Assembly (NCBI RefSeq): GCF_964204645.1
Contig: NC_134028.1
Coordinates: 16,995,653 to 17,059,652 of the forward strand
DNA from: Tubulanus polymorphus
Taxonomy: Eukaryota > Animalia > Nemertea
Reading direction: 5' to 3'
DNA: 64,000 bases
Shown here: in pieces, positions 31,690-60,659 of the stretch
How positions within the stretch are numbered: position 1 is the stretch's first letter
Layout of the letters: the number at the start of each line of letters is the position of its first letter
Notes under the pieces: generated by a model
What the model was told of the DNA's origin: nothing
What the model saw: the letters and a program-made list of their open reading frames with translations, nothing else
Databases searched by the model: none
Made by a program: the position numbers and the translations under genes

Positions 31690-32303
31690 ATTTTATTTTA
31701 TAAATTTATATTCATAAGGAAATTGTAATCTCAGTTATAATTTTGAACCTTTATTATTCTTTAATTTATTCATATATTCATCATGTAATTCAGTAGGTAT
31801 AATTTGATTTTCTTCCAATGATTGTTGCATAGATTTTTTATCTTTGTTATAAAATAAACTAGAAATCTTATATTCTCCCTAAAGTCTTTAACAATTGAAT
31901 AATATTTTTGATTTAAAACCCATGTTGTTATCCCAAAATGTCTCCCAGAGAAAGCTAGATAACATAACTCACTTTCTCTAACTTTTGAATCATGTAAATT
32001 TGCGCAATCATCTATAATGAATAATGTATTTGATCCTTTATAAGTATCAATTGCTATTTTAATACAATTATCTAAATTTTCTTTTACTGTTTTAGGATCT
32101 AATATAATAAACTTTTTCATCTTAACTATATCTCTATTATATGTTTTATTCATTTCATAAGTAGGACAAAATAATATTATGTTATCAAAATGATTCTTAT
32201 AAATAGTTTCTAACAAATCTAATATGAAATGTGTTTTACCACAGTTTGTTACACCAGTAACTAACATATTATGCGGTTCGAATATAAATAAATCTTTATT
32301 CAT
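31690..32303 (-). pseudogene. A32/FtsK-type DNA packaging ATPase, frameshifted near the C-terminus
   Basis: Walker A GVTNCGKT, Walker B LFIIDD, GRHFGITTWVLNQ. Confidence 0.88.
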
Positions 32304-33363: not shown

Positions 33364-33379
33364 CTTATTTTAATCCATT

Positions 33380-34354
33380 AATAATAATTTAGATTTAGTT
33401 TCAATGACTTTATGATTTGACGTATTTTCTGATATAATAGGTTTATTGTCTGTACACGGATAACTAAGTTTCCGATTATCATTGGAATCATCTTTATCAT
33501 CAGATTTGAATTTTGATTTATATATTACACCGGATAATATAATAACTGTTACTAATCCAATTGTAATATATAATTTATAATTACTTCCAGCATTAGAAGA
33601 ATCAGATGGATTGGTATTTGAATCAATATCAGGTGATTCATTTATATCAGTTAATTTCTTTTTCTTAGCTTTTTTTAATTCTGAAGATCTTTTACCTAAT
33701 TCTCTTGCCCATTTAATTTGTTTCTCTGATCTAGCCTTTTTCTTAACTCCATCACTAATTTATTTTAGTTAATTTTTGTTCTGATTCATTTTCTGTTTCG
33801 ACGTTTGGTTGTAGTACATCTGTTTCGTTCTTACCTGATTTATATTCCATAGGCTTGATGTTCGAAAATGTTATGACACCAGTAGAAATTAATGTCATAA
33901 CCGATCCTAATTGAAATGAAGCATAACCAACCCATTTTTGTAATTCAGTCATAACTAAATAGTCATTTTTCAAATCACTATATAATTTATTTTCATCATT
34001 AATTGGTATTAACTGGTTACATAACTTAGAATAACATTTGACAATACCATCTGAAATAGAATCATTTATTCGGACTAATCTTGCTTCTTCATAAATCTTG
34101 AAATATTTTATTACTTTATCGGGTTTCATAGCATCTAATTCTTGAAAAGTTATTATTTTTCCCAAGAAATCCTTAGATTTCCCGCCAGCAATTAGTAATT
34201 CAAGATGATGCTTACAATATAAATAGTATTCATAATCTATATAACAGTTAACTTGAGCACAATTAGTTACAACTGTATCTTTATTATCACTTATACCCAA
34301 AACATCTAATGTCTTTTCAATATCAATACTATTCTTATTAGATTTCTTTGACAT
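33380..34354 (-). CDS. Maverick hypothetical protein(s): 199-aa ORF then, past a stop, a basic region and a TM segment
   Basis: ORF 33755-34354; downstream ARSEKQIKWARELG..YKLYITIGLVTVIILSGVIY. Confidence 0.5.
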
Positions 34355-35352
34355 TTATATTAGAGAAAAAAGCGAAAAAAAATATAAGTATTATAAAATG
34401 ATACCAGCATCTCTTTGGGTTAATACTAGTTAGTTAAAGGTAAAGAATTTTAGTATTAGTTATTGTGTTTTTAGTATTTTTTATTTGCGATATAAAGTAT
34501 TCTCTTTTGAAAAGAATTGTAAAAGAAAATATTAAAAATTAAAATAGAAATAATGGCTAGTTGAAGGTATGTAATTTTTAATATATTTTATTTGAATTCT
34601 ATTTGATATCTCACTACTTTTGTTTATCTATTAGGAGCAGTAATTATAACTGTCCAGATAAGTCATTTCGGATCCTTGGTATCAAATTCCTCAACGTATT
34701 GTTCATTATTTGGATCATTGTTCCATTGATCAATAAATGTCTTTGCCTTTGTTAACTGTTCTAAATATAACTGTAAATCTAGTTTATTAGATTTTATTTT
34801 ATTTTCTTTCTTTTTAAGAGGTCTTAAATGTCAAATTCCAAATAAGTTTTTTATTGTATTCATCATTCCTTTCCATTTATAAATCAAATTTTTAATAAAA
34901 TTTATTAATATTTTAGAATCCTCTTCCATTTCTTCGACTAACGTCATCCTTTTTCATTCCTCGCTGCTTTTGATAAGTCATTTCGGATCCTCGATAATAA
35001 ATCCTCAACTGAAAATCAATTCAACGAAACGACTGGTGGAAATATAATTTCACAAACACATATATTTATTATTTGAATTTTAGCGATCGATAATAGAACA
35101 ATGGAGAACAATAGAAAAGCGGTCCAATCGGACCGGTTATTGCGCAATACTAAGTTAACAGTAAACAATCAATACAGAACAACCGCCGCCATTAACAACG
35201 ATCAATAATAGAACAATGGAGAACAATAGAAAAGCGGTTTAATCGGACCGGTTATTGCGCAATACACAGTTAACAGTAATCAATACAATATTAAAACAGA
35301 TATACACAATCGAGATTACATTTTTGATATCTAAGACCTTCAGTGTTATAAT

Positions 35353-37589: not shown

Positions 37590-38063
37590 AATGCGAGTAT
37601 TAGGCTATAATAACGCTGGTATCCGGCTACTAGCCTGCGTGGATATTGAGCTAATGCTCTTAACGCGGTTATCAGGCTACTGCCCTAACGCGAGTATCCA
37701 TGCAGCTACAAGCCTACGTGAGTATTGAGCTACTAGTCTAATGCTGGTATCAGGCTACTACCCTAAGGCGGGTATCGAGCTACTGCTCTAAACACGGGTA
37801 TCCAGCTACTAGTCTAACGCCGGTATCAGGCAACTGCGGCTCTAACGCAGGTATCAGACTACTGCCCTAACGCAGGAATGAGGCGACTGCCTTAATGCCG
37901 GTAATGAGCAACTAGTCTAACGCCGGTATGAGGCAACTGTGGTTAATGCAGGCTACTGCTCTAACGTGGGTATTGACCTACAAGCCTTCGCGAGTATTGA
38001 GCTACTGCCTAACGCAGGTATCAGGCTACTGCCGTAACGCGGATATCAGGCTACTGCCGTAAC
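37590..38063. repeat. 25-bp minisatellite (GCGGATATCAGGCTACTGCCGTAAC), diverged part
   Basis: About 18 degenerate copies, closest to consensus at the right edge. Confidence 0.85.
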
Positions 38064-38953
38064 GGCTGTTCGAATATCACGGATACCGGATACCGGACAC
38101 CTAAATACCGGATACCGGATACTCGAGATTGCGGAGTATATAGCGCATCGGGTCTAATGGTCAGCGGTAAACGGCAGTTCGTCTGAGAACAAGTAAATAA
38201 TAAAAGGCCTAGATTATTTTCATATTAATACATAGGTATATCCTTTTCAAATACAGTAGTAGCATACAAAATGTTACCGGTATAGACAATTCAATTCAGA
38301 TTTATTGCTTCCGAGTAATATCACGATTACATACGACAGACACGGTAACAAACAGTGGAAATATTTTTTATCATTCTGCCAATATGAACGGATTACCGAA
38401 TAGACCGTTACCGTTTTGGGCAGAGCTACTGTACAATACAAAATATCTTTATCATTCAGTTTCACGAAAGAAGAAGGCCATTTTAATAAGGCTAAGCTTT
38501 GACGATCTATATTTTCATGATCTTTAGAATCAAATTTAACATCAGGGTAAATAGTCACTTAGAGGTATGGTAGGTACCGGCATTCGACTAACTGATTTTT
38601 GAAGGTTATACCAAAACAATTGGTGTCCAGGGGTGTTGATTTGCGTTGATTTTCGACGATCGCCATGGACTCAATTTCATTTTTAGGGACATCGTGATTG
38701 AGAATGAAATGTAGACATATCGTCCAATAAATAGAATATTATCCTCCATAAAATAAGAAAACGAATTTTAATTCTTTGTTCTTAAATACTTGTATTTCAT
38801 TGGTGTTCAGCTCAACTATTCCATCGTAAATGAACAAATACAAAATGTAGAGATCTTTAAAACAAACTTTATTAGAAGAAACTTTAGAACTGCCAGACTC
38901 GCTTATGGCCTTCTAACTTGAGATATAGGGCCTAGCAGTATAGCAGTACTCAG

Positions 38954-39807
38954 GGTTAGCGGTAAAAATCCCCTAGGTCAAAATCCCCAATTATTCAAAG
39001 TAGGTAAAAATCCCCCACCTTTTGAATGGAGTCCAGATTAGATACAATTTTAAGGTCAATTTATTTGTATTAATATATTCTATTTAGTTACGTTAAATAG
39101 AAATATCATGAATATAGAAGTTATCGTATTTGAATGAAAAATATAAAATTAGAAGTTAGTTAATTTACAAAATCGCATCACATAGTAAATCACAAAAAAT
39201 TGGTACTTCATTAATACTGTATCGCAGAAAATATAAGTTAAAAAGAAAAAAAGAGGTCATCGCAGAGTTCAAACATATCATGATCTTAAATTTCAAAATG
39301 CACTCCAAATTAAAAGTTCATTGATATCGCACAGCTTAAATAACATATCACAAGTTAAAAATGGCTCATGAAATAGATTTTGAAGTTTAAAAAGTATTGT
39401 CACTTATTAATTGAGTAAGTTAGCTTGTCACTCATTAATTTTGAGTAAGTTAGCTAACCAGTTATTCACAATAAATAGTAACTACGTTTACTAGATTTTG
39501 TTTCTTTATCTTCGTTTTTCCTAAAAATGATTTTTGACCATTGACTTTATTAAGATAAACTTAAATGCTAAACAAAATACAGTTAAATCCATACAAAGCT
39601 ACAAATTTAAGGAAGAAAAAAATTCAATCGCAAAAAGGCAGAAATAATGATAATAAATTTAGTAAAAATGATAATAAATGGATAGTACTTGAGAAATATC
39701 TTGCTTTAAAATGTTCTCTAGATGTGAAGTGGGGATTTTTACCTACTTTGAATAATTGGGGATTTTTACCTGGGGGATTATTACCTAGGGGATTTTTACC
39801 TACAACC
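38954..39807. mobile_element. MITE with GGTAAAAATCCCC subterminal repeats, 8-bp TSD GTACTCAG (Mutator-like)
   Basis: GGTT..GGTAAAAATCCCCTAGG / CCTAGGGGATTTTTACCTACAACC inverted ends; TSD at 38946-38953 and 39808-39815. Confidence 0.8.
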
Positions 39808-40339
39808 GTACTCAGCCCTATTAATGAAAGGATTTTACAGAAAAACCAAAAAGGGCCACCAATACATATCCATCACCAGTGAAGTAAGATAATAAAAAAT
39901 GAATATAACGTTTAACTTCACCTAACCAAAGAAAAACAGTATTCAGAAAGAAATATGTATAATATTGAGAAAGTATGAAGTACAACAGTTTGCATGAAAT
40001 CTAGTGCAGGTCGCTAGAAAATAACAGCTGTGAAAATGCCAGACCTAAATAATACCAGGACAGAATTTTAGAACATTAATTCAAAGCTTATTACACTAAC
40101 TCAAAACTGTAAGCTCAACTAAAAAAAATTTGGGATGTAACATGATGACGTATTTACATATATTATATTATTTTTATACATTTGCGTATTGATTTGTTAT
40201 AACCTTCAACTAGAATTATATCAGAAAATAATGAAATGCGTTTGAAATACAATTCTACCAAATTCCGTCCTGGCATTTTCTAAGTCCAGAATTATCTGTG
40301 GTTATTTTCTGATAAAAATTTAGCTAGGCTTGTTAACGC

Positions 40340-40514
40340 CTACCTAAGATTTCGGAAGGTTAGGCGTACCTCATAGCGCTTTACCTGTAATCTTTTACAA
40401 TTTCGGAAGACGGCTAAGCATACTTCACAACGCTTTACCTGTAATCCTTTATGATTTCGGAAGACGGCTAGGCGTACTTCACAACGCTTTACCTGTAATC
40501 CTTTATGATTATTC
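40340..40514 (-). repeat. 54-bp tandem repeat (~3 copies), possibly a 3' exon of the MULE gene
   Basis: Encodes RNHKGLQVKRCEVRLAVF repeats after a TTTTCAG acceptor on the minus strand. Confidence 0.6.
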
Positions 40515-40613
40515 TGAAAATAGAGAAAATTGTTTAACATTTATGAATTGACTGCAGTAACATCAACATTAGATACGCTAAGTAATCACATTCTTAAGAT
40601 TCTAGAAATGAGT

Positions 40614-43600
40614 TTAACTGAGATATCTGTTCTGGTGACATTTGGTTTGAACCTCTGTACTAACAGAAAGGGACCGAGTTGAAAATGACCGATATTTGTT
40701 TCTAATACAATGCAAATTTAAGTGATAATAGGTTCTTTGGGGTTTATTGGATTTCGTTAATTCACCAGTGTGGGGATGTTTATACGTTCTGAAATCCCAT
40801 TTTCTAACAATAAGGTCACAATTAGTTGATTCTGAATTGCGGAACTCTTTACCGCAGCCATAACATTTTTTTATTAAACCTTGTAAAAAGGTTACTGAAA
40901 AATCATCCAAATTAAGGGAGTCGCATTGCTGCGATGTCGAACCTGAAGAACCACATCTCCTGGGTTGGTTACCTTTGGTTCCACAAGACTGTAAATTTAC
41001 ACTAGATGTTGCAATTTTAAATAAGTTTGTTCTTTTTTTACTACTTTTGTGCCACTTCAAATACTGACCAAGACTTGCTGCTTTTTCGGCAGCTGAAACT
41101 GAATGTGAACAAAGGGAATGGAAGGAAAACTGTTTACACGTACAGAAACAATTGCCACTTTGCACATTAACATTAACCGAATTATTTGTTATCGAAGTAT
41201 CGCTTATAACACTGAACTTCTTAATCAATGGATTATTTGAAGGGGCACAGGCAATAGCATTTGAAGATGACAAAATATTATCAGCTTTTTTCCAAATTGA
41301 AAATAACAATGACTCAACAATCTGAACTCCATATTTATCTTTAGCATCTTTAACGGATATGGATATGTTTGAAGATGGTATAGTAATCAGATTTGAATCC
41401 ACGCGATTATAAAGTTCATGCATCGTTAATGATTGGACCATTTTCAAATGCTCTATGCGCTGTGGGTGCGTCAATTGAAATATATTTTTACAAACAACTG
41501 ATTTAAATTCATCCCTTACGACATATCGTTCGGAAACATTAGAAAACGCTCGGTATAACTCTTCCCTTTCACTCAGAATCATATTTTTTAACGATTTAAT
41601 AAAAGCACATAAACCCAACTCTCTGTTTTGCATCCAGTTCCTCATTCTAGAATTCGTGCTCTCCGAAGAGTTAGTATAAAAGTAGGAAGGTGGATCACCC
41701 ATTCCTGCATTTTGTCTTACATTAGAAATAAAACAACTCTTAATCATGGATAGATTTTCATTCATGTACTTTGAAAATTTTTTAGACTTATCTAATTCAT
41801 TCCAACGAATTTCCAGTTTCTTAAATTGAATATCACATTCATCCGCAGTACGGGAATTAATCAATGCATTTATACTATCATTTCCAAAAATACTAGCTAG
41901 AATTTCATTACTAGAATTTTGATCCAGACCAATACTACTTAACTTACTTATAACATTTTTTTTAAAGTGTCTGGTACAACGTAAATGCAAAGCATTTGGA
42001 AAATAAGACGATACTGCCTGAAAAAGTTCGGTTTCCCCATCAGTACCGAAAGCTATAATGTCTTTTAGATCATGCTTTTCAGTTAATGTTCGAAAAAGGG
42101 TCCCGTAATCGTCTTTTTTCTTAGTGAAATGAAGCAAAACGGGGCCTGTGAATATAGGTGATTCTGCTGATCTTTTACATTGAAGCATTAAATTCTTATA
42201 TGTGATCGGGGTTACATGAAACCTTCCAAATTTAAATGTGGGATCAACTGAAATAGGTGCAAAATCAATTGGATCAGATGAAAACTTAAACATATCATCT
42301 AACTGCTCATTAAAAAAAAGAACTGCAGCGACGTTGGGGTGAACCCCCAAAAACTGAATAAACTCCTTTAGTTCACCCTTAGCCAGGTCCATTAATACTG
42401 CTAATTCATCGTTTTCATGGCAATGAGTAATACCTTTTTTACTTTGTCTAACTTTATAGGATAAACCTCTTGTGGCTAAATCAGCTTGGGAATCAGCAGT
42501 TAATACTGACGATACAGATATAGATTCAGCAGATGTTTGTCCAAGCATATTTTCCTTAGTTGCAGTTACAATAGAGGGTTTAACTCTCGTATGAGGTTTT
42601 TGATTAGTTTTAGAATTTCCATGGGGTCTAGCAGATATCGGATGTTCTTCATTGTCAAATGAATACTGAATTAATACTGAACTGTTGACTATAGTACCAT
42701 TCTTGTCGGTTAAATACATTAGCTTCCTAGAATGGTCTACATCATATTTGTGCCTGTAGTAGGTCTTGTAAAGGTATAAATTACGTTCAATTTTCTGCTT
42801 AGTCATGGAATATTTCTGACCATTGTTTACAATATTTAATTTAGTTTTCCCTTTATGAATATAAACACCATTTCCATCACATTTTATATCAGCAAATGGA
42901 ACTCTTTTTAAATCAATGATAAAAACGACATTTTTATCAACACAATACGGAACTTTGGTACACTTTATAATATTTTCGTTGAGTAAAGTAGTACATACAG
43001 TGTCGATATCCAATTCTTTGCCCTCTTTGAATATGGGTAATTGCTCGTCACCATTGTACAGTTTCATCGGAACAGATCTGTAAAGTTATTCAATTATTCA
43101 TTATTGATGTAAACACAATATATTATGTATATCGTAAGGTAAAGTGACCAATTGTATATATGTATTTACCTTGTATCGTCATTTTCCTCACTGTCATCAG
43201 AGATTACTATACAGTCCGAGACATCTGTGCTATTAGTGCTGTTGGATGGTAAGTTCATAATCCTAAATAGATAAATGAGTTCAAATCAGCAATACCGGTA
43301 TAGCAAATTGGTATTCGGTCAAATAAAAAGATAACTTAAGTTCAGCTGAATAGCGAGAAAATTCAAAGAACTGCAGCTAAATTAAGCAAGCTTACTCGTC
43401 ACTATTTGTTATTCCATTCATAACGTCGTCTGTACAATCATCAGACGATATTTCGATGACTTCCTTTAGATTTGTACTGAAAGTAGGAATTGATAACATA
43501 TTAAAAAAATTATCATCGACTCATAAATCTTCATCAATGACAATAACAAACAAACCCCATCTAAATGTCTGTCATTTACTGATTTTCTTATTCTTCACAT

Positions 43601-43912
43601 GTCACAGAATTTTGATATGATGTTCTAACATAGATATTCTAACATGTTCTAGATATTCTAACATGAAGTGCTTACCTGACATCAACATAACTTGTTAAGT
43701 CATCATCAGATGATGGAGGTTCTGAACTAAAATGAAAGGAAAAAATTTATAACTTCATCAATAAGGTTAGCTATCATAATCAGGGTGTTGTACCTTTCGA
43801 CGCCTATTTCCTCCATGTATTGCTCCAAATGTTTATCGACCTGATGATCTCCCATTGCGGACTGACTGGCGCATTTAAAACCACAAGATATACATTTATA
43901 ACTCCGCTGCCT
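40614..43912 (-). CDS. MULE-type DDE transposase with SWIM finger; 817-aa main exon plus small upstream exons (C2H2 finger)
   Basis: ISVDPTF (D1), FGTDGE (D2), LRCTRH (CxxH), TNSSESTN (E), SWIM CFCTC..LCSH, C-terminal CYGC..YHLNLHC; GT-AG exons at ~43170-43262, 43396-43470, 43676-43726 and 43794-43910. Confidence 0.85.
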
Positions 43913-44675
43913 GAAAAAGAAGTGAATGCATAAGAAAACTGCTACCATTTAAGGGACAACTTATAAGATGGACATTCCCAAAATTGATTAATCATTTTAA
44001 ATGTAAAACCATTTTTTGAATCACATACCTACATACTTTAGATACTTTAGATTTGTTTTTCCTATTATTTCTTGCAGATTCTCCAAGTGAACTATACTAA
44101 AAATGTTGGATAACAATTATGATATAAAAAACAAAAAAACTCAAAGAAGTATTAAATGTTTTTAATTCTGAATGCTAGGAAAGACATAAATTCAATCACC
44201 AAAATCGTTTTTGCAATCTGACCAACCAAACGTATATCTTAGTTATAATGTGGCCTAACTGATATTTTCACTAATAAAATAATTATTTACAACTCTTTTC
44301 CTGGCACTTTCCAGATGGCTCGTGACTATGCCAGGAATAAACTGGCCTTTGAATATAGTATCGCCACATTGTTCGGATGTTGTAGGAAAGTCACTCTGAA
44401 AATAAATAAATAAATAGTACTGAATTTTACAGAAACAAATGAGTAAAAAATAAACAACATTTAATAACTTCCAATTAAAATAAGTAGTTTTATTGGATAG
44501 TTGAGATTCTTTCGTAAATGTCGCACATGTAAGGAGTAAAAATCTGTCAGCAAAATCTATGTTGTGAATAAAACGTTTGAGTTTGTTTTGGCTAAGGATG
44601 TTTTTTTTTCCTTTGGTAACAGTTGCTCTGTCTACCACTAACAACATCATAAAATCTGTATAAACACTTGTATCT

Positions 44676-44915
44676 CTAACGCGGATATAAGGCTACTGCC
44701 CTAACGCGGGTATCAGGCTACTGTCGTAACGCGGATATCAGGCTACTACCGTAACGCGGATATCAGGCTACTGCCGTAACGCGGATATCAAGCTACTGCC
44801 GTAACGCGATTATCAGGCTACTGCCGTAACGCGGATATCAGGCTACTGCCGTAACGCGGATATCAGGATACTGCCCTAACACAGGTATCAGGTTACTGCC
44901 GTAACGCGGATATCA
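44676..44915. repeat. 25-bp minisatellite, homogeneous part (same unit and orientation as 37590-38063)
   Basis: About 9-10 copies of GCGGATATCAGGCTACTGCCGTAAC. Confidence 0.9.
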
Positions 44916-46468
44916 GGAGTAATGGGAAATTGCGGCTTTCAGATCAGAGGTCGTGAGGTCGAGACACCTCATTACCACAAATAATTTTTCCCTAATAAAT
45001 GGCAGATAAAAAAGCATTCTTAGCAATAATAAATAACAGAATAAAACCAGCAAAAAAAAACAATTTGAAAATATAGCTGCAAAGCAGCGATAACGGGTTT
45101 TCTGAGCAGGCGTGCTATTCATAATTTGAAAAGTGGATAATAGAAATATATCTATACGGGATACGCATTTGATGAGTCAAGTCACACCAATGCAGTTTAA
45201 CATAACATAATTTATAGTTATAGTCAAATTGGGGGTTACTCGGGTCGTTTAGTTGTCTGTGGAGTCGAGTAGATTGGTTACCCGTCTGTAACATTGGTTA
45301 TGGAGACTCGTCAGCTTGATGAGTTGTATGTATTATGATTGTGCGCCACCTGCATTTTCCGAAATAATGTTCATATAATTATTTGAAGGGACGATTGAAA
45401 TCAATTATCAACGTACATCTGAATATGTAATAGTCCTTAGTAACTTTCTGTTGCAGAGGGCATAGAAAAGATTTTGAATTATTTAATTAAAATATAAATT
45501 TTATTTACGAAAAATAAACTATTATGGTCAGTACAAATTGAAAATTCATAGTGTATTTCAAAGAACAAGCTTACATAGCTTACAGAATACATCACGTACA
45601 TTTGAATTTTATAAGTGATGGGTAAAAATCAACGTGTGACAGAAAAAAGTGTAGTTAATTATTTAAAAATATCGAAATATGTGCTCTCTTTTTAAACTAA
45701 TGGAGTGATACGCAATTAATCACATGGCCTGTATTAAAAGATAGAACATACAAAATGGATATTTATAAGTCGAAACATGTGAAAAGAAACTAAAACTCTG
45801 ATGTCAGTGACCAGTATGGAATTACACAACGACAATTGGCTTTAAACTCAACAAACATTATTAAAGAATGTTTCAAACAAAATGCTTTATAAAATAACAT
45901 GAATAAACTTGTTTTACAAAACAAGAAAGTACATTTTGAACTTTTGAATCCCATTTATTCACAGTAACCTGTGATGTGGCGATTCTCGGAGCCATCCTTC
46001 TTGGTGACGTCACTAACAAGTGGTCACGGCCGTACGCGTGGACTCATTTCTTTGAAAATCTAGCTTCCTCGCGGAGCGGGACATGGTGACGCTGCGCCCC
46101 ACCCCCTTCGCGCTGAGAAATATCTTATTCCCAGTCAGCAGAGACAGGTTCTAAAGATCATAGAGTGCATCGCTGGAGGGTTTCCGATCCATATAATTGA
46201 ATTTCAATTGGTGCGGTGGCGCTCTCAATGCGGAAGTTTTTGTCATTCCGAAATAAACCGTAAAGTTTCCCAAGACTCTGTTTATAACGCATGCGCATTA
46301 GGAAGTGTTGGGGAAATCAGAAATTGGTCACGTGCGCATGCGTCGCTACATGTGTATTTTTTCCTTAACTGGGTCATGTCAGAACGCTGAAACATAGAAC
46401 TATAACGGAATGAACCTGCGTGAACTTTTGCGCAGCGGGAAGGCGCAGTTTGTTTGGTCACTTAATAG

Positions 46469-47716
46469 TGATCCACAGCTAGATTTTCGTAGTATTTGAA
46501 AATATTTCGTAGTATTTAGAAATGTTCTTAATGTTGTTTCCGTATGCGTAGGGGTTACGTTAAAGTTGTCAGACAAGAACGTAATAGTAGTAAGAATTAC
46601 GAAAGTTCTTGTTCGATGCTTTCATCTACCAACGCAAACCATAAATCAGTCTATAAACAACAATTCTTTCTCGGTTCTTCTGCTGTGAGATCTGGAAACA
46701 TTCAGAAAATCTTTATATAAAACTTTTAAATAGTTGGAACCATATTTGGTTGGGTCGGAACAATGGAGTGTATTTATAATGAGGCTGGTGAAGGGATCAC
46801 GCTGATACTTGATGATATTCCCGGCTACTTTCCGTAAAAGGAAAAACCGGAAGTTTAGGAAGATGTGGTTGTTTTGCTTATCCTGTATTAAAATAGAATT
46901 AGTTAAATTGTAGATAAAATAATTAGTATAAGTATTTCAAATAATTTAAGAATTGATAATCAATCACAATGTATTCCGAATCGTAGTTAATTATAATAAT
47001 TAAAAAAGAAACAATGAATTTGTACTGTAATTAGAAAAGAAAACAAAATTTTGAAAAGATATTTAATTTGAGAAAGATGTTGTTTAAGAACAAATTGTTA
47101 ATAATCGCTAATGTTTTAGAAAAATTAATTTGTGTTAAATGTTAAAACTAGCTGTCTGAAGTTTCTGTTGTCTGTATGCGCTCGTTGGTAATTCACAGAC
47201 AATAGCTGCTCCCTCAACAACGACAAGCAAGGAGTGAGTAAATCACAACGCGTCATGACAGGAGGGTTGGAAGGAAATAGTTAGTTTAGCAAATCAGTTT
47301 TGAAAATAATTTTAGATCAGCAAATCATTAAGGCCAAATTCTATATGACCAAAACAGTAAGGTTGCTGCTCCTTGCCAAAAGTCGAGTGGGAGAGTCGGT
47401 ATTTTAAGAATGCCGATTCTTTCTATAAAAGGGACCCGCATCTTGAGAGAGCAGTCAATCGGGAGAATCTGTACCTTAGTAAGACGAGTGTCGACAGCAG
47501 GACAGGAGAAGCTTCGGAACGATAGGGATTCATATACAATAGGGATTAGGAAAATCATTCTTTGTTCAAGGTAAATAAAATATATTATCTTCAATATTAT
47601 CATCCGGTATTTCAATTTATTTATTCGGATTTGTGCACGGACACGTTCTCTCGCCAGGGCCTTACTCAAGTATTTTATAGATAACGATTAAAGAGAGGAT
47701 TGTGACCGGTGTATCA
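46469..47716 (+). repeat. 5' LTR (1248 bp)
   Basis: Direct repeat of 58760-60012; TATA-like TATAAAA at ~47425, ATTAAA near the 3' end. Confidence 0.95.
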
Positions 47717-47832
47717 CTGGTGCCGAAACCCGGGATATTGGTGTATCACTGGTGCCGAAACCCGGGATATTGGCGTATCACTGGTGCCGAAACCCGGGAT
47801 ATTGGCGTATCACTGGTGCCGAAACCATATTG
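47709..47832 (+). promoter_or_regulatory. Primer-binding site (tRNA-Phe) in four tandem LTR-end+PBS units of 32 bp
   Basis: TGGTGCCGAAACCCGGGA is complementary to the 3' 18 nt of metazoan tRNA-Phe(GAA); units start at 47709, 47741, 47773 and 47805 (last truncated). Confidence 0.9.
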
Positions 47833-47967
47833 ATTAATTATTGTGTCGAGCTTTTATTATTTGTAATTTATTAATTTTAATGGTTCGAATTTTTATTTTT
47901 TCACACTGTGGTGCGAAGAACGCTTTCTCAAAGAAGCGCCGCACTCCAATAAACAGGCCGACACAGG

Positions 47968-48329
47968 CATTGTGGGATTCGAACCCACCCCGTGCACGAC
48001 CATTTCAGATCCCGGAGGAGTTTCGGGAACCATTGTGCGATTCGAACCCATTGCCAACTCCGGTCGTCCCTGTTGAGACATTGCGGGATTCGAACCCGCG
48101 AAGTGCACGACCATTTGAGATTCCGGACACCGAGAGCCGTCGTGGGATTCGAACCCACCACTGCACGCTCATGTGTAATACCGGAGGAGTGTCGGGGACC
48201 TCTGTGGGATTCTAACCCACTCGCCATGCAGGTCGACACCGATGGGGCTGCACTACAGCCATTGAGGGGTTCGAACCCTCCACCTTGTGAATTGCCAAAA
48301 CCGTCCGGCCAGGATGGGGAATCGAACCT
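47968..48329 (-). repeat. Array of seven tRNA T-arm/B-box hairpin motifs with variable spacers in the retroelement leader
   Basis: GNGGGATTCGAACCCNC-type cores at 47976, 48039, 48087, 48146, 48208, 48268 and 48319; the minus strand reads GGTTCGAATCC. Confidence 0.85.
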
Positions 48330-48379
48330 ACATCTGTTTAAAATGTTATTTTAGATTAGTATTCGCTTAAAGATATACA

Positions 48380-49443
48380 ATGTCGACAGGAGGGGAGACG
48401 ACGTACGGCGCGGGTGGCTCACGGGAACGATCCGCTGTAAGCAACGACGTTCTGCAGGCCCTCTCTGGCCTTCGCGAACAGGTGGACACAGCCACGGCGT
48501 TCATGAATTTCTCTTTGCTCCCTAAATTTACGGGACGAGACGACCAGTGCGTCTCTGATTGGTTCAAAGGATTTGACCGTTTGGCCGATCTAAGGGGTTG
48601 GAACGATGACGCTAAAAGGAAACAGTTGTATTGGTTTTTGGCTGGCCCGGCCCTAATCTTATTTAATGATCTTCGAATTGATCAGGGAACCGATGCGGCC
48701 GGTGGCAAAGTTGTCACTCCCTGGGAAAATATTGTCCGTGCGTTTTGCGCGCAATTTAGCCCCACCTCGTGGGCTTTGGTCAAGGAGTCGGCTTTGACGA
48801 CGATGCGACAGGGGGAGACACAACCGGTCGATAGGTTTGCGGAAGAGATTGATCGTGTGGCCTCGAGTTTGAAATTTTCGGACCACCAGAAAAAGATGTT
48901 ACTAATTAACAACTCTCGCCCTGACATCTCTGTCTACCTGTTGTCACAGCGTCCTACGACGTTTAGGGATGCATGGGAAGCAGCCAGAATGGCTGAACAT
49001 ATTGAACAACGAAAGGCTCTGTCGTCTCCCAAGGTATCGCAAATTGGGACCGAACCAATTAAGGCGACAGGAGATGTCATGCTGAGCTACGGGACATGTT
49101 TCGCCAGATCATGGACACTCAAAAATCTACCCGTACTCAGCAAAATGATAGAGGTACCTACTATAGTGAGAACCGTCAATCACAAAGGTCGCAAGATGGA
49201 CAGGTGGTGTGCTATCAATGCCACGCCCCTGGTCATTACGCCAGGAATTGTCCGTCTTGGAGTTACGACCAACAAAGGTCACGGGTCTCGCCAAACCGGG
49301 ACGCATTTCAGCGTGATAGTCGCCGTCCTCGAAATTCTGGTAGGGGTCAGTTTCGGTCACAGAATCTTGGGCGTGATTTCCACCGGATTAGTCGAACATT
49401 TGGTCAGGGAAACGACCGGAGACCTCATCCTATGGACCGATAA
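48380..49443 (+). pseudogene. gag: Gag (capsid + CCHC zinc knuckle), one frameshift near 49090
   Basis: LPKFTG..WFKGF..W..LAGPA, MRQGETQPVDRF; CYQCHAPGHYARNC in the second frame. Confidence 0.88.
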
Positions 49444-49450
49444 GGGTGGG
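49407..49450 (+). promoter_or_regulatory. -1 ribosomal frameshift site G GGA AAC between gag and pol
   Basis: Slippery heptamer 49407-49413 in the gag frame; the -1 frame is open into ORF 49446; GC-rich structured sequence follows. Confidence 0.75.
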
Positions 49451-52400
49451 GTCGCGCAATGAATGGTCAACTGAGCCCTCGCGGGACTCGTTAATAAGGA
49501 GTGATTATTGGTGGGATGACACATATTCGGGTTATCATAGTTATGATAATGACAGTCCGGTAATTGATAATTATATTTTTGATGATGTTGATGATTATTT
49601 TGAGGACGATAGGGATGATATATTTGACACGTCATTTGATCAGGGCAACATGCTAGCTGATTCAGTTGACGATTATTTTGGACCTGAGGAAAACTGTACT
49701 GCGTATTACTTTCATGGCAATGAGTCTCTGAATTTAGATAGGTTTGCCGGCCATCACACTCCTTCGTGGGGTGCTGATGACGTTTGTGACATTCAAGATC
49801 GTAACTTTGGGGATAGCTGGAGGGACAATTCCCAGTTGTCGTTAGATGGAAATTTTTATATGGATCAGGGATCCAATTTTGAGGACATCTGGAGGAACAA
49901 TTCCCAGTTGTCGACTACTTACGAGCATATAAAAAGACACAGGAGGGTTACGTTTAGCGATCCGGTTAAATTGCAGGAGGTACGTGCTGATATGGCGTGC
50001 TCGGGTGACAATATTAGTATTGATAGGTCACACCCTAGAGGGGTTAATGGTCCGACGGATTCGGCAGAAGATGACCTTTTTAGAGATAAGAAGTGTCATT
50101 TAGATTGTCACGAAGGCGCTTTTGATCAGTATAGGTACCCAGCAACCTCCGAATCAGCAATACAATGTGATCTTGTGTCATCAGGTTCAAGTAGTAACAA
50201 TAATTCACGATCGGAATGTCTTAATGATCAGAGTAATATGGAAACTATTTTGTCAAAGATATCTAGGAGTCAATGTCGGAGAATTTGTGTCACTCGTTTG
50301 AAAGAGGACAGAACTTTCCTCTCACCTCAAATGCCAGCAGTTTTCACCATCCAGTTGGGGATGGAATGTCCCATGAACAGGACAGAGGTCAAGTTGTCCT
50401 CACGTCTAAACCGAATATGCCAATCAACGAAAATGTTGGGATAGGAGATTCGAACTCCGAGTTTCAACCTACTATTCACTGTCAGGAACAACTTCCACCT
50501 ATTACGACGACTTTAGGTAACACGCCAACCAACGACATAGGGTCTCTTTCTAGTCAGAATAATCCTATTGAACAAGAGGTTTATTCCCCGTCAATCATGG
50601 CAACTGTCGCTAACCGAGTGACAGGTAGCCATTCGGGGACACCGTTACGTATTTTGATCGACACGGGCGCCGAAATCTCTGTATTATCGAACGATTATTT
50701 TACGACTCATCCTCAGATATCAAATGGCCCTTTGCAGGTCGGTCAATTCCAATCTGCCCGTGGGGAAGATGGGAACTAAATTTGACCTGAGAGGAGTTAT
50801 TTCTGTGGATTTTGTGTTAGGCAATTTGGAAATTACGCACTCTATGTACGTGGTAGACGGTATCACGTCCGATGTAATTCTTGGAGCTGATTTCTTAGAA
50901 CAAAACCAGGCAGTTATTGATTATGCAAGAAAGGCCCTTTTGTTACCAGGGGCCGATGCAATTTACTTCGACAATACTGTCAATTTGGGCAAGTCTTCGT
51001 CCGTCAAGGTTACGCGAATGACTGTCATTCCCCCCTCATGTGAGGTCATCATAGACGGAAAATACTTGATTGACAGGACACAAGCATCGGTGGCAGTCTT
51101 TGAGCCGGCAAATCAATTAAGGGCACATGATCTTATGAGTGCAAGGTCAGTTGTCGACGTTACGCAATCAGGCATTCCAGTTCGGGTCATGAATCCCAGG
51201 TCACGACATGTCACCCTCTATGAGGATATGTGTCTTGGCCACTTATGGACAGATGGGTGGTCACTTGACCAATCCCTGAAGAATGAAGGGAATTCGGGAC
51301 AGCTGACCCGACCTCCAGAGGTGTCTGTCACACATGTAGACTACCCTCAGATATCTGCTGACATTGGGATACCGGAAATAGATATGTCAGACTCGGACCT
51401 TTCCCCATCACAGAAAGCGAAACTTCTTGAACTAATACGATCGTATCGGGACATTTTTGCATGAACACCGGACGAACTTGGTAAAACTGACTTAGTCAAA
51501 CACGTCATATACACAGGGGACGCGGCCCCAATTCGGAAAAGGCCTTATAGAGCCTCTCCGGCCATGCAAGAAGTTATTGACACGCATGTCAAACAGATGT
51601 TAGACATGGGGATAGTACAACGTAGTACTAGCCCATGGGCTGCCCCGGTCGTTCTCGTTCGGAAAAAGAGCCCGGACGGAGAGGTTAAGTGGAGATTCTG
51701 TGTTGACTATCGGGGATTGAATGCTGTCACCCGTTCAGACTCTTTTCCCCTGCCTAGAATCGATGATCTCTTGGCTCAGGTTGGTCAAGCGGCACCTACA
51801 TTCTTTAGCTCACTTGATTTTCTGAGTGGCTACTGGCAAGTTGAAGTTGACGAGGCCAGTAGGGATAAGACTGCTTTTATAACACAGTCGTCTCTTTTGG
51901 AATTTAAGGTACTCCCATTTAGTCTGAAATCGGCGCGATCTACCTTTCAGAGGTTGACTGGTGGTCTGCTGAGAGACTTGGTTGGGAAATTTTGTCTAGT
52001 ATATTTGGACGATATTATCTGTTACTCGAATTCTTTTGATGGTCATTTAATTCACCTGGCTCAAATTTTCGATCGATTTCGTGAGTCAGACCTTCGCCTA
52101 AATCCCAAGAAATGTCGGTTTGCTGTCAAAACCATTGACTTCCTTGGACATCGAATATCCAGGGATGGCATTGCTACTGACCCGGAAAAGGTAGCAGCCG
52201 TACAGGAATGGCCTGTCCCCACGACTTTAAAAGAACTACGAAGTTTTCTGGGGTTCACCAATTATTATCGGCGTTTTTGTAAAGGTTACAGCACTATGGC
52301 GGCCCCCTTACACCAGTTGACTAAGAAAGGCGTGCCATATAGATGGGACGCTTCTTGTCAACAGGCTTTCGACACCCTTAAGCAAGCGATGCTCGAAGCC

Positions 52401-54506
52401 CCAGTATTGGCCTACCCCATTTATGGGGCATCGCCATTTTTATTATATACTGACGCCTCCGATGAAGGTATCGGCATGGTACTGGCGCAGGTACAGGATG
52501 GGCAAGAAAGAGCAATTGCATATGCGGGGCGAGGATTGAATAAAGCGGAGAAAAATTATTCTACAACGGACCGTGAACTCTTAGCTGTTGCAGCAGGAGT
52601 CAAAAAGTTTGAACCTTACTTACGGGGATACCATTTCGAGATTATCACAGACCACAGTTGCCTACGGTATCTTCAGACTATGAAAACCCTTTCGGGTCGT
52701 GTTGGCCGTATTGCACTCTACTTAGAGCAATTTGACTACTCCATATCGCATCACCCGGGCAAGGCAAACGGGAACGCCGATGGGCTCTCTCGTCGCCCGT
52801 ATCCCATTTCTGATAGTATGGAAGACACTATCGACACGTGTGCTCTCGAGGCTGACAATGAGCGGCCTGTGCCCGTCAACATGGACGAGCTCCAGCGGTC
52901 TGAGTTACAATTAGTGTGTCTTATAGACTATTTACTTGATGGTACCTTGCCAGATGATGACAAGGAAGCCCGGAGAATTATCTTGCAGTCAGACTACTTC
53001 TTTGTTGATGATGATGGAGTTCTTTACCATGTAGACTCTAAAAAGAAAATTGAGGCTGATGGGCCTCGTCAGTTAGTCATACCTAAAAGTATGTATGCGG
53101 AAATGTTAGAGGCTGGTCATGATTCAATGACTGGCGGTCACTTGGGTCACAAACGGACCTACGAAACCTTGCGAGCAAGGTATTACTGGCATGGTATGTA
53201 TCGAGACGTTGAAAATTGGATTAAATCCTGTAAGGACTGTGCGACTAAGAATCAGCCAGGGAAGCCCATTAGGGCCCCGGTTAACCCCATAGCTGTCACA
53301 GGGCCGTGGGATAGAGTCTCAATGGATGTCTGTGGTCCTTTTCCAACAACGGACTCGGGAAATAAATACATATTGGTCTTTGTCGACTATCTTACAAAGT
53401 GGGTTGAAGCTTTTGATATGCCTAATCAAGAAGCCACGACGGTCGCTACGATCTTCTATGAACAAATCATTTGTCGCCATGGGGCGCCCTCTGTCTTGCA
53501 GAGCGATCGCGGAACAAATTTCCTGAGTAAATTAGTCATTGAGGTTTCGCGGCTATGTAATACGCCACGGGCACGGTCCAGTGCGTATAGACCACAAACT
53601 CAGGTACAAGTCGAGCACATGAATCTTGTGATTGTCAAGGCTCTGAGCATGTACTGCAATGAACGCCAAACCGATTGGGACGAATACCTTTACCCCATTC
53701 TATTTGCATATCGGGTAAGTCCAGCTTCGGATACGTCGCAATACTCGCCATTCTACCTCACGTATGGCCGAGAACCGAGGTTGCCGATGGACGTTGCTTT
53801 ACTTAATCCGAGGGACGTTTACTTTGATGCAGGAGGCTTTGTCCAAGCAATGTTGCCAAAGTTAAAAGAGGCCAGGAAGTTGGCCAAGGCTAATATCAAA
53901 AAGGCGCAGGAGAAGATGAAGGAACGTTTCGACAGGACTGCCGTTCCTCCAAATTTCGCAGTAGGTGATCAAGTGTTGCTATTCACTCCAAAGAAAATAA
54001 AGAGGCTTAGTAAGAAATTGCTTCATCAATGGACGGGCCCTTATCGAATTGTCCGACAGATTTCTCCTGTATCTTTCATTTTGGAGAATGAGAGGAATCA
54101 AGAGTTGGCCGTCTCAGTACATTGTAATAGAATGAAGCATTTCTTTTCAACGGACATTAGGCCGCTTGAGGACGACATACCTGAGAATCCACCTATTGAC
54201 AAGGAGGACAGGGATAAACCTGAGGAGGGGCCTGTGCTCGCACCGAATGATCCGGGCGATCAAAATCAGCCTGCGAATCCGGTTGAGCCAATCTATTACG
54301 TAGAACGAGTGATTCGTCACAAAAAAGAGAAAGGCATTCTGAAATATCTTATAAAATGGGTTGGCTATGACGATAATGAGAACACGTTTGAGCCAGCCGA
54401 AAACCTGCCTCCTGAAATCATTCGAGCCTATTGGGATGACCATGCCGCTAAAGTGAAGCGAAAAACTCGTAAAAATAAGAGGAGACGTCGAGAAAGAGAC
54501 GACTAG
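49414..54506 (+). pseudogene. pol: Pol: long spacer, aspartic protease, RT, RNase H, integrase, chromodomain; two frameshifts and one stop upstream of RT
   Basis: LIDTGA, VILGADFL, SPWAAPVVLV, RFCVDYR, YLDD, LYTDAS, GHLG..CKDC, VSMDV, LQSDRG, GPY, YYVERV..YLIKWVGY..NTFEPAENL; TGA at 51462. Confidence 0.95.
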
Positions 54507-57166: not shown

Positions 57167-58746
57167 AATTAAAATTTAAATATTATGACGAGGGCGCGCG
57201 GGTGCGCTCCGTGTCAAAATTGAATTAGTTGTATTATAAGTCGTAAGTATAATCTAATTAATAGTTGAATCAGGATGCGTATGTCCTGTTGAATTATCGG
57301 AAAGTTTTGATTTATAGTAGTAAGTGATTAAGATATCATTACATAAGAAATATGAAAATTTAGAATCATAATACTTAGTTCGTGAGTGAACTCATGGCCT
57401 GGTCATGAGTTACGGAAATAAGGATAATCGTGACAATTGCTGATATTAATAATTGTAATTGACATGACATCGGCTTTAGCCTGACTAAGTATCCGGTACT
57501 TATTATCGATAGTTTAAAGAAAAGTCATTAATTATTATTGCGAAAAAAAAAGTTATTGTTAATAATAACAATGAAACAAATACTGTTTGAATAAATACTG
57601 TTTGTTCGTATATGTTTGAATAATCTCTGTATTATTATGATATTAATTGTAGGATACCCGTATCGGATGTGTTGGAATGAGACCGCCGAAGATACGATAG
57701 CACTAAGATGGAAGAATGCCTTCTTCTGTCAACCGCAATAGATGTTGATGGGTACCCCCTGATAGTGACCATATGGAGATGGGGACTTGTTGGGAGGTAT
57801 CCTGAAACTCTATTCGATGCAACTGATAGTTTGAAAAACCAGCAACTGGTATGCTCTGGCCGAGATGGGTGATATTAATTCACCGATTCGTCAATTAACG
57901 AGGAAAAAGGAACAACTATATACAGCCTTCAACAACGATCTAGGGCGTTGCCGTTTCAACGGGATGGAATCATGCTCGATGATTAGTCATGCGATTCTGG
58001 CCATTGTTAGTGGTGTTTGTCACTCTCGAAGACCTGTTATATACTCACAAACTTAAGTGATGAAGGGTGGACAAAGACACCTGGCCAATGCGATACGAAA
58101 TATGATGAAAAGTGATAATTTCCGTAGAAATTTTAGCGGAGTAAAGCCGAGTGTGTTCAAGATGGCTCCCGTGTAGTTACATTAACATTCGATGGAATGT
58201 TGTTCGCTCAAGCCGTAAGATGCGAATACATTACTGTTCCGTTTCTATATTAACTGTGGAGAAAAGACTCCGATATAGTAACCGTAGTACTATAGCGTCT
58301 ATGAATAGCGAGCAAGTATCAGCTGAACATAAATGCGTTTTGCCGTACTATCAACGTAGCAGTACGCGCTGCGAGGAACTGCGGTGGATGACGTCATTCG
58401 TCCGTCCATGACGTACCTTGTTGTGTCTGGTAGCTGTTGCGTCACTTTGCAGTAAATTCTAAACTCAAACTGTGAACTGTTTTGTGCTTAACTTTCGACT
58501 GTTTAGTGTGCGGGGACAGCGGTCTCGAATGAACTTTTTTCCGATTGGGTATCCAGAACTTTAAATGCGGTTTTATGATAACTATATCATGAACTTTAAT
58601 ATGCGTTGTAGTGTCGAACTCTAAGAAATAGTTACTCGTTATAATGAATTGTATACTAATGTTCTTTTTCAGGATTTGTTCTAGAGGTATCAGCGGGATA
58701 TTCACTAGTTGGTTTAAATTCAAAATTTTGGGACGAAATTTAAACT

Positions 58747-58759
58747 GGATAGGGAGTGT
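58747..58759 (+). promoter_or_regulatory. Polypurine tract plus 3-nt spacer before the 3' LTR
   Basis: GGATAGGGAG-TGT|TGATCCAC. Confidence 0.7.
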
Positions 58760-60012
58760 TGATCCACAGCTAGATTTTCGTAGTATTTGAAAATATTTCG
58801 TAGTATTTAGAAATGTTCTTAATGTTGTTTCCGTATGCGTAGGGGTTACGTTAAAGCCGTTAGACAAGAACGTAATAGTAGTAAGAATTACGAAAGTTCT
58901 TGTTTGATGCTTTCATCTACCAACGCAAACCATAAATCAGTCTATAAACAACAATTCTTTCTCGGTTCTTCTGCTGTGAGATCTGGCAAACATTCAGAAA
59001 ATCTTTATATAAAACTTTTAAATAGTTGGAACCATATTTGGTTGGGTCGGAACAATGGAGTGTATTTATAATGAGGCTCGTGAAGGGATCACGCTGATAC
59101 TTGATGATATTCCCGGCTACTTTCCGTAAAAGGAAAAACCGGAAGTTTAGGAAGATGTGGTTGTTTTGCTTATCCTGTATTAAAATAGAATTAGTTAAAT
59201 TGTAGATAAAATAATTAGTATAAGTATTTCAAATAATTTAAGAATTGATAATCAATCACAATGTATTCCGAATCGTAGTTAATTATAATAATTAAAAAAG
59301 AAACAATGAATTTGTACTGTAATTAGAAAAGAAAACAAAGTTTTGAAAAGATATTTAATTTGAGTAATCTAGATGTTGTTTAAGAACAAATTGTTAATAA
59401 TCGCTAATGTTTTAGAAAAATTAATTTGTGTTAAATGTTAAAACTAGCTGTCTGAAGTTTCTGTTGTCTGTATGCGCTCGTTGGTAATTCACAGACAATA
59501 GCTGCTCTCTCAACAACGACAAGCAAGGAGTGAGTAAATCACAACGCGTCATGACAGGAGGGTTGGAAGGAAATAGTGAGTTTAGCAAATCAGTTTTGAA
59601 AATAATTTTAGATCAGCAAATCATTAAGGCCACATTCTATATGACCAAAACAGTAAGGTTGCTGCTCCTTGCCAAAAGTCGAGTAGGAGAGTCGGTATTC
59701 TAAGAATGCCGATTCTTTCTATAAAAGGGATCCGCATCTTGAGAGAGCAGTCAATCGGGAGAATCTGTACCTTAGTAAGACGAGTGTCGACAGCAGGACA
59801 GGAGAAGCTTCGGAACGATAGGGATTCATATACAATAGGGATTAGGAAAATCATTCTTTGTTCAAGGTAAATAAAATATATTATCTTCAATATTATCATC
59901 CGGTATTTCAATTTATTTATTCGGATTTGTGCACGGACACGTTCTCTCGCCAGGGCCTTACTCAAGTATTTTATAGATAACGATTAAAGAGAGGATTGTG
60001 ACCGGTGTATCA
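58760..60012 (+). repeat. 3' LTR (1253 bp)
   Basis: Direct repeat of 46469-47716 with few substitutions and small indels. Confidence 0.95.
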
Positions 60013-60659
60013 ATAGGATCATTTGTGTTTTGGGGAATGACAGACCTGTCATTCCCCAACCTGTGTTCAAGTGGTCTTGCCATAAGCTGAAAATCTAAGA
60101 TATATATCGGTATATTAAAAAAAAGTATGAATGTATTTTTCTGCTACACATTCGGGATTCGAACCTAATAGCACTTAAAAGTAAATCCTGGGGCTATCAA
60201 AGTTCACTGTTTCATATTCGGTATGCTGTAACTTACTCGGCAAACAATAACCCAGCGACACTTTAATCATCAAAGTTCATGTCGTAACGCTTGAAATACG
60301 ACCAGTAATTTTCGGGTTTCGAACCTGCTTATAAGATGAACCAGCGTAAATAAGATCAATATTTTTACGGGATTCGAACCTAATGGAAACTATAGCGACT
60401 ATTAGTCATTAAAGGTCCTATGACCTCTGATTTGGAATTTCCCCTTTTTTGGTATCGATAAACTAAGTAGACACCCCTTTACTACTCAGTGTCACTATTT
60501 CTTATGTTTGCGCGAACATATTCGGAAAAATCGGGTCTTAAAATACTTTACTCGCACATATCCATAAAAACTAGTTCATTTTTTGGCCACTACTCACGGT
60601 GTGGCGCTTTAATTTTGTGACGTAGGTTCCGACAAACTTCATTCAGACTTTCATTACAG

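What the first reader, a model, noticed from the sequence alone, without database searches (positions are those of the whole stretch)
47968..48329. Repeat-spacer array of seven antisense tRNA T-arm/B-box hairpins with covarying stems in the retroviral leader
Seen: seven cores spaced 63, 48, 59, 62, 60 and 51 bp apart between PBS and gag, with partly unique spacers. On the minus strand the best copies are a 5-bp stem with a 7-nt TTCGAAT-type loop, the geometry of a tRNA T-arm. Stems covary (GTGGG/CCCAC, GCGGG/CCCGC, GAGGG/CCCTC), pointing to selection on structure or capture from different tRNAs; no A box or cloverleaf accompanies them. Known: GGTTCGANTCC is the TFIIIC B box and can act as an insulator; Drosophila gypsy has a Su(Hw) insulator array at the same position; HIV-1 PAS pairs with the primer T-arm. 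Inference: a TFIIIC-based insulator or anti-silencing array, a multi-tRNA/tRF capture platform on the genomic RNA, or a record of serial tRNA capture. With the quadruple PBS it suggests an undescribed tRNA-centred control module.
Basis: partly seen in the sequence, partly recalled or inferred. Interest (0 to 1): 0.82.

Follow-up and report, generated by a model that had tools for sequence, protein, structure and literature searches.

The report
tRNA-arm hairpin array in errantivirus leader
An envelope-bearing animal retrotransposon family carries seven mirror-image copies of a tRNA arm between its primer site and its first gene; the hairpin shape has been kept while the spacers diverged, so the array likely works as a genome-pairing and packaging signal on the element's RNA, with a chromatin-barrier role as the close rival.

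Summary
In detail: seven 17-nt cores, spaced 63/48/59/62/60/51 bp, lie between the primer-binding site (PBS) and gag of an LTR retrotransposon with a chromodomain integrase and an F-type env (errantivirus-like). On the minus strand six match the B box; no A box or tRNA accompanies them. Public reads show the array is family-wide (depth like gag), varies in unit number, and keeps its cores where spacers diverge. It is not coding. Corrections: three of six spacers are diverged duplicates; covariation rests on one base pair; the fourfold PBS is a minority or private variant; the cores do not match the primer tRNA's T arm. All three outer stem pairs, which TFIIIC is not known to need, are intact in 4 of 6 array B boxes but 0 of 19 other B-box matches in the window, so structure is being maintained. 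On the genomic RNA the loops are self-complementary, as in retroviral dimer-initiation hairpins. Best reading: RNA pairing/packaging array (0.38); rivals: TFIIIC barrier (0.27), tRNA docking (0.15), neutral repeat (0.15). No array in 114 distant gypsy loci. Function untested. New variant of a known kind.

The parts
46469..47716 (+). 5' LTR (1248 nt), 4-bp target duplication outside both LTRs
   Evidence: 1236 of 1248 aligned bases identical to the 3' LTR; target duplication and termini
47711..47826 (+). PBS of tRNA-Phe(GAA) type in a 32-nt unit repeated 3.6 times; PBS starts at 47718, 47750, 47782, 47814 (last one short). Minority or private state
   Evidence: type by the 12-nt PBS table of PMC13524379 supplement 1; read depth and skip-96 joints
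47972..47988 (.). core 1: 5-bp stem, 7-nt loop; B box on minus strand, 6-nt palindromic loop on plus strand
48009..48032 (+). part of spacer 1 complementary to the PBS (best such match in the element); post hoc, modest support
   Evidence: -25.9 kcal/mol against -20.0 for the next site among 4459 windows; 6 of 200 and 1 of 200 shuffles reach it
48035..48051 (.). core 2: stem mismatched at two places in this copy, paired in most other copies
   Evidence: 300 of 315 and 256 of 281 reads
48083..48099 (.). core 3: perfect stem with one compensatory pair
48142..48158 (.). core 4: identical to core 1
48204..48220 (.). core 5: perfect stem; loop has lost both the B box and the palindrome
48264..48280 (.). 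core 6: perfect stem with a second compensatory pair; B box on both strands
48315..48331 (.). core 7: B box intact, outer stem degenerate
48380..49462 (+). gag; capsid-like part and zinc knuckle lie in different frames in this copy
   Evidence: PF03732 and PF00098; ORFs
50267..54506 (+). protease (in pieces) and RT-RNase H-integrase-chromodomain
   Evidence: PF13650 (weak), PF00078, PF17917, PF00665, PF00385
54529..57166 (+). F-type env, in two frames in this copy
   Evidence: PF12259, E 7e-13; atlas hits at 0.95-0.96 to Baculo_F/Gypsy env clusters
58760..60012 (+). 3' LTR

Best explanation
The seven cores are a family-wide array of tRNA-T-arm-shaped hairpins in the leader of an errantivirus-like retrotransposon, and they likely act on the element's genomic RNA as repeated pairing (dimer-initiation) and packaging hairpins. 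Shown: position between PBS and gag, family-wide presence, growth by duplication, kept stems, palindromic plus-strand loops. Inferred: each hairpin's loop would kiss the same loop on a second genome and then open into a 16-of-17-bp duplex, helped by the Gag zinc knuckle. Inferred origin: a primer tRNA copied past its usual stop would leave an antisense T arm behind the PBS, and that piece was then duplicated; this would explain the B-box match without TFIIIC.
For: Outer three stem pairs intact in 4 of 6 array B boxes, 0 of 19 other B-box matches (p 0.001). Two compensatory double changes: 1e-4 to 4e-4 under random substitution, 10 of 500 shuffles. Cores 1 and 4 differ at 0 of 17, their spacers at 12 of 45 (p 0.026). 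A lineage seen in 130 reads keeps a unit-1-like stem between unalignable flanks. 5 of 7 loops hold a 6-nt palindrome; intact B-box cores self-pair at -23 to -27 kcal/mol, and the two variant stems pair best with their own kind. The three one-sided stem transitions seen (units 1, 2, 7) all leave a G-U pair on the plus strand, not the minus (p 0.125, my count). Spacer 1 can also pair with the PBS on the plus strand. Kissing loops that extend into stem palindromes start retroviral and, by model, Ty1 dimers (PMC5454406 passages; PMC4974528 passages). PBSs that run on through a whole antisense T arm occur in 2 of 114 gypsy loci.
Against: Self-pairing follows for any T arm with this loop and is as strong on the minus strand, so it does not prove use. 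The plus strand of the array folds no better than shuffles (z -1.1; 13 of 100 as good), and in the whole-leader ensemble the stems have probability 0.00-0.78 on the plus strand against 1.00 for three of them on the minus strand. Changes at tRNA position 59 (unit 7 and the 130-read lineage) shorten the palindrome but spare the B box. Within the family, variants are not depleted in cores (9 of 39 shown places against 11.3 expected, p 0.27; 37 further places not shown), and 33 of about 247 reads break the outer stem of unit 3. The unit 1 versus 3 contrast is not significant (p 0.31). No core is preceded by the TGG start of a PBS.
Confidence: 0.38

Rival explanations
1. A DNA-level array of stand-alone B boxes that binds TFIIIC and likely shields the LTR promoter from silencing, or insulates it. 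The perfect stems would be a by-product of fold-back templated mutation.
For: 6 of 7 cores match GTTCRANNC with no A box, as at extra-TFIIIC sites (PMC5391098 and PMC4228148 passages). Five B boxes form the fission-yeast IR-R boundary and three suffice (10.1101/630970 passages). Drosophila gypsy, ZAM, Tirant and Idefix carry repeated protein-binding 5'-UTRs with insulator or enhancer activity (PMC8872304 passages). The integrase has a chromodomain. 5 of 9 loop changes fall on positions the B box leaves free.
Against: Does not explain the outer stem pairs. 5 of 9 against one third expected is not significant (p 0.14); 4 of 9 break the B box, one of them in 76 of 265 reads. Unit 5 keeps its stem but not the invariant C. 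Templated repair of 5-bp arms is recalled, not tested.
Confidence: 0.27
2. The cores are selected, or repeatedly converted, to stay complementary to T arms of several non-primer host tRNAs or their fragments, which would dock on the genomic RNA.
For: One constraint would explain stems, covariation and free positions 57, 59, 60. The three pair types at the covarying position are among the four commonest in 136 natural matches from viral contigs, 106 of them inside tRNAs. Ty1 and Ty3 RNAs anneal to the T and D arms of their primer (PMC4974528 passages).
Against: The known cases use the primer tRNA, and the cores match the primer at 1-3 of 7 testable bases. Each core is itself a closed hairpin. 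Unit 5 is no natural T loop. The host's tRNA set was not available; the natural matches are phage and prokaryotic.
Confidence: 0.15
3. A neutral, self-perpetuating repeat: the cores act as homology islands for template switching, which duplicates and deletes units and keeps them alike.
For: Reads show skipped and repeated units (joints); the adjacent PBS was also amplified in this copy; no depletion of variants in cores; no array in 114 distant relatives.
Against: Switching between cores would make hybrid, mismatched stems, not compensatory pairs; cores persist beside unalignable spacers across lineages.
Confidence: 0.15
4. Each unit is a degenerate Pol III promoter making antisense small RNAs, as in the bovine leukemia virus miRNA cluster.
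For: BLV uses degenerate A boxes with B boxes in a tandem cluster (PMC12498455 passages); permissive A-box matches lie 30-60 nt upstream of 3 of 7 cores.
Against: 0 of 7 cores have a stringent A box; permissive matches sit at no fixed distance; only one T4 terminator lies inside the array on the minus strand.
Confidence: 0.05

Closest known systems
Chromodomain-bearing F-type 'ancient' errantiviruses of Cnidaria, Mollusca and Annelida (PMC13524379; passages and two supplement searches seen)
   Same: LTR-PBS-gag-pol-env layout, F-type env, chromodomain after integrase
   Different: The main text has 0 occurrences of 'tandem', 'B box' or 'UTR'; leader arrays are not described there. Placement in their clade was not tested.
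Repeated 5'-UTRs of Drosophila gypsy, ZAM, Tirant, Idefix, accord (PMC8872304, passages)
   Same: Polymorphic tandem array in the same place in the same class of element
   Different: Those units bind host chromatin proteins (HP1, RpL22; Su(Hw) recalled) and are not described as tRNA-derived or hairpin-forming.
Retroviral dimer-initiation hairpins and Ty1 PAL / kissing loops (PMC5454406, PMC4974528, passages)
   Same: Hairpins with self-complementary loops near the 5' end that could extend into a duplex
   Different: One to three sites there, six or seven near-identical ones here, and these are exact antisense T arms.
Fission-yeast IR-R B-box boundary and extra-TFIIIC sites (10.1101/630970, PMC4228148, PMC5391098, passages)
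   Same: Clustered B boxes without A boxes
   Different: Host chromosomal elements, not inside a mobile element; no stem requirement reported in the passages read.
Ty1/Ty3 multipartite PBS and HIV-1 PAS (PMC4974528 passages; PAS recalled)
   Same: Retroelement RNA complementary to a tRNA T arm
   Different: Those pair with the primer tRNA; these cores do not match the primer implied by the PBS.

Membership tests
Errantivirus (env-bearing Ty3/gypsy) | Paired LTRs with target-site duplication and tRNA PBS | tested here: met
Errantivirus (env-bearing Ty3/gypsy) | gag, then protease-RT-RNase H-integrase order | tested here: met
   frames are broken in this copy
Errantivirus (env-bearing Ty3/gypsy) | F-type or gB-type env after pol | tested here: met
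   PF12259
Chromodomain clade of ancient errantiviruses (PMC13524379) | Position in the RT tree with the published elements | not tested
   Chromodomain present; the published sequences were not in the supplements searched
Dimer-initiation / packaging hairpins | Hairpin with palindromic loop in the 5' leader | tested here: met
   6-nt palindrome in 5 of 7 loops; between PBS and gag
Dimer-initiation / packaging hairpins | Hairpins form in the folded genomic RNA | tested here: inconclusive
   Stem probability 0.00-0.78 on the plus strand; fold z -1.1
Dimer-initiation / packaging hairpins | Needed for dimer formation or Gag binding | not testable with these tools
   needs in vitro assays
Extra-TFIIIC / B-box boundary array | B-box consensus without A box | tested here: met
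   6 of 7 cores; 0 of 7 stringent A boxes
Extra-TFIIIC / B-box boundary array | Variation confined to positions the B box leaves free | tested here: inconclusive
   5 of 9 loop changes compatible, p 0.14
Extra-TFIIIC / B-box boundary array | TFIIIC occupancy and barrier activity | not testable with these tools
   needs ChIP and reporter assays
PAS / multipartite PBS | Complementary to the T arm of the primer tRNA | tested here: not met
   1-3 of 7 bases at primer positions 59-65
Pol III type 2 promoter (tRNA, SINE, BLV-like) | A box 30-60 nt upstream of the B box, terminator downstream | tested here: not met
Coding repeat | Units in one frame; indels in triplets | tested here: not met
   frames 0,0,0,2,1,1,1; indels of 1, 4, 7 and 16 bases

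The most novel reading that the evidence does not exclude
A retroelement has turned over-copied primer-tRNA tails into a two-level switch: as RNA the array pairs two genomes in register for packaging, and as DNA the same bases recruit TFIIIC to wall off the promoter of a chromodomain-guided provirus from heterochromatin. This would be the first LTR element with its own tRNA-derived B-box barrier.
Probability: 0.17. Interest if true: 0.8.

Novelty: new variant of a known kind. Interest (0 to 1): 0.5.

Why it matters
Leader arrays of errantiviruses are known only from flies, where they bind chromatin proteins; packaging signals of Ty3/gypsy elements are mapped only in yeast. This array gives a compact, testable candidate for either role in a non-insect-type errantivirus, and the two readings make opposite predictions for single positions (invariant C and position 59 against the outer stem pairs). 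It also suggests a route, seen in two other gypsy loci, by which a primer tRNA's T arm enters a leader. It is so far known from one family in one host species, which limits its reach.

Tried and rejected
No whole genome is held for this window, so other copies were seen only through reads. No RNA holder was listed. Gag and env found no homologue at the thresholds used. A single-protein pol scan of viral contigs found nothing. The 114 gypsy loci from alignment A1 are distant (best segment at most 53% identical), 47 of 114 have over 250 nt before a crudely defined gag start, and 1 of 114 has an env match; none holds an array by motif scan (two loci have a pair of weak sense matches), covariance model (best E 0.07) or shared-loop hairpin scan of the 47 leaders. 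This is weak evidence of absence in close relatives. A two-core pattern in viral contigs gave 17 loci, 13 with tRNA genes and none examined as a retroelement; a three-core pattern gave 0. Earlier findings: nothing by sequence, words or relatives; the nine listed notes do not bear. A resemblance of core 1 plus flank to a ZNF143/Staf site is recalled; one search gave an unrelated paper and it was dropped. The plant-virus 'box B' T-arm mimic is recalled and was not confirmed in the passages read; it would need the sense orientation. Host group not established: named hits include a coral and a pseudoscorpion.

Full report
Context. The finding lies in a 13.5-kb LTR retrotransposon. Its LTRs (46469-47716 and 58760-60012) are 1236 of 1248 bases identical and have a 4-bp target duplication. 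Pfam finds gag, zinc knuckle, protease, RT, RNase H, integrase, chromodomain and a Baculovirus-F env (atlas). Gag, protease and env are each split over frames in this copy. This is the layout of the F-type errantiviruses of PMC13524379, which reports a chromodomain-bearing clade in cnidarians, molluscs and annelids (passages); I did not place the element in their tree, and the host group is not established. The PBS is of their Phe-GAA type (supplement 1) and is repeated 3.6 times in a 32-nt unit.

The observation. Seven cores lie at the stated spacings. Five are perfect 5-bp stems with 7-nt loops; unit 2 is mismatched in this copy and unit 7 is degenerate. Six match GTTCRANNC on the minus strand. 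The 11-base B box occurs 10 times in the window against 0.66 expected. There is no stringent A box, tRNA or Rfam family. Spacers 1, 3 and 4 are diverged duplicates; the other 12 of 15 spacer pairs are not significantly alike. The array therefore grew at least partly by duplication.

Other copies. Four public runs hold the stretch, all one study and one species label, and may include the window's source; a raw-read DNA run with the same label comes from a second study. In that run, depth over the array is 130-285, over the start of gag 240-360, and over the extra PBS copies about 32; 53 reads skip three of the four PBS units. So the array is family-wide and the fourfold PBS is not. Joints show skipped and repeated units, and cores joined by spacers unlike those here. 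Indels between cores are 1, 3, 4, 7 and 16 bases and the cores lie in three frames, which rules out a coding repeat. Unit 2 is paired in most other copies (300 of 315 and 256 of 281 reads). A lineage seen in 130 reads keeps a unit-1-like stem, with a change at tRNA position 59, between flanks that no longer align. Against selection: 9 of 39 listed variant places fall in cores against 11.3 expected (p 0.27; 37 more places were not shown), 76 of 265 reads change an invariant B-box base in unit 3, 27 of 222 in unit 4, and about 13% break the outer stem of unit 3. Many genomic copies are probably dead, which blunts this test (inference).

What is being kept. All three outer stem pairs are Watson-Crick in 4 of 6 array B boxes and in 0 of 19 other B-box matches in the window (p 0.001). 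The covariation is real but narrow: one pair, three types, two double changes, with a chance of 1e-4 to 4e-4 under random substitution. Cores 1 and 4 are identical while their spacers differ at 12 of 45 (p 0.026); the same test for units 1 and 3 is not significant (p 0.31). A DNA-only B-box role leaves the outer pairs unexplained unless fold-back templated mutation (recalled) restores them.

Mechanism. On the plus strand, the genomic RNA, 5 of 7 loops hold a 6-base palindrome, and intact cores can pair with a second copy over 16 of 17 bases. This is the design of retroviral dimer-initiation hairpins, and it sits where they sit (PMC5454406 and PMC4974528, passages). Three one-sided stem transitions all favour the plus strand (weak, p 0.125, my count), and spacer 1 is the element's best partner for the PBS (post hoc, 6 of 200 and 1 of 200 shuffles). 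Against it: the self-pairing is a property of any such T arm, the array does not fold better than shuffles, predicted stem probabilities on the plus strand are 0.00-0.78, and two changes at position 59 shorten the palindrome while sparing the B box. I put this reading at 0.38. The TFIIIC barrier reading (0.27) has good precedents: five B boxes at fission-yeast IR-R (10.1101/630970, passages), solo B boxes bound by TFIIIC (PMC5391098, PMC4228148, passages) and insulator arrays in fly errantivirus leaders (PMC8872304, passages); but loop changes favour it only 5 to 4 (p 0.14). Docking of non-primer tRNAs (0.15) fits the pattern of variation, since the three pair types are common among 136 natural matches, but has no precedent that I found; pairing with the primer itself is excluded by the PBS. 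A neutral repeat (0.15) and Pol III units as in BLV (0.05; PMC12498455, passages) remain. The RNA and DNA roles are not exclusive.

Origin. In 2 of 114 gypsy loci (L030, L084) a single PBS continues through a whole antisense T arm. Such an extended PBS, then duplicated as the PBS itself was in this copy, would give this array in this orientation. No core retains a PBS start, so this is inference.

Range and literature. None of 114 distant gypsy loci holds a comparable array; they are at most 53% identical in pol, mostly lack env, and only 47 reach upstream of gag. Ten full-text searches of the open library showed no report of a T-arm or B-box array in an LTR-element leader; subscription papers and Repbase entries are outside that library, five of the seven supplements of PMC13524379 were not opened, and bioRxiv supplements are closed. 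Also read as passages: PMC5006619 and PMC10424219.

Verdict. A real, family-wide, non-coding array with evidence of kept structure, in a known class of element and at a place where repeat arrays and dimer signals are known. The unit, an antisense tRNA T arm, appears undescribed there. Function is untested. New variant of a known kind; interest 0.5.

Noticed in passing
window 60147-60388: Three B-box-like motifs on the same strand as the array, without stems, 140-370 bp outside the 3' LTR, upstream of an intron-broken transposase-like reading (my reading). Could hint at insertion near TFIIIC sites, as for dictyostelid Skipper-2 (PMC5006619), or be chance.
   Followed up: partly
L030 131-158 and L084 965-992: Gypsy elements whose single PBS extends 28 bases through the whole antisense T arm of the primer tRNA.
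   Followed up: partly
window 47711-47826: The tandem PBS unit includes the last bases of the LTR; it is rare or absent in the read set and may be private to this copy or an assembly feature.
   Followed up: yes
window 47991-47998, 48103-48108, 48122-48127, 48232-48237: Further 6-8-base palindromes in the spacers.
   Followed up: no
window 47880-48215: An upstream ATG opens a 112-codon frame through units 1-3; five more upstream ATGs precede gag. No Pfam match.
   Followed up: partly
window 49392-50444: A 350-codon acidic, low-complexity frame between gag and protease with no Pfam match.
   Followed up: no
window 57170-58760: About 1.6 kb of non-coding sequence between env and the 3' LTR.
   Followed up: no
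window 19000-34400: Low-GC block (20-27%) with a protein-primed-type DNA polymerase B match and many ORFs: Polinton-like.
   Followed up: no
window 37611-44917: MULE-like transposase (40614-43085, weak match) flanked on both sides by arrays of a related 25-bp unit.
   Followed up: no
window 14259-17695: Non-LTR retrotransposon with endonuclease and RT in two frames.
   Followed up: no
L099-L131: 33 animal-type gypsy loci sit in contigs filed as prokaryotic MAGs, probably host contamination.
   Followed up: no
L001-L017: Phage contigs with a second T-arm copy 43-68 bp from another, mostly next to a tRNA gene; four have no called tRNA.
   Followed up: no
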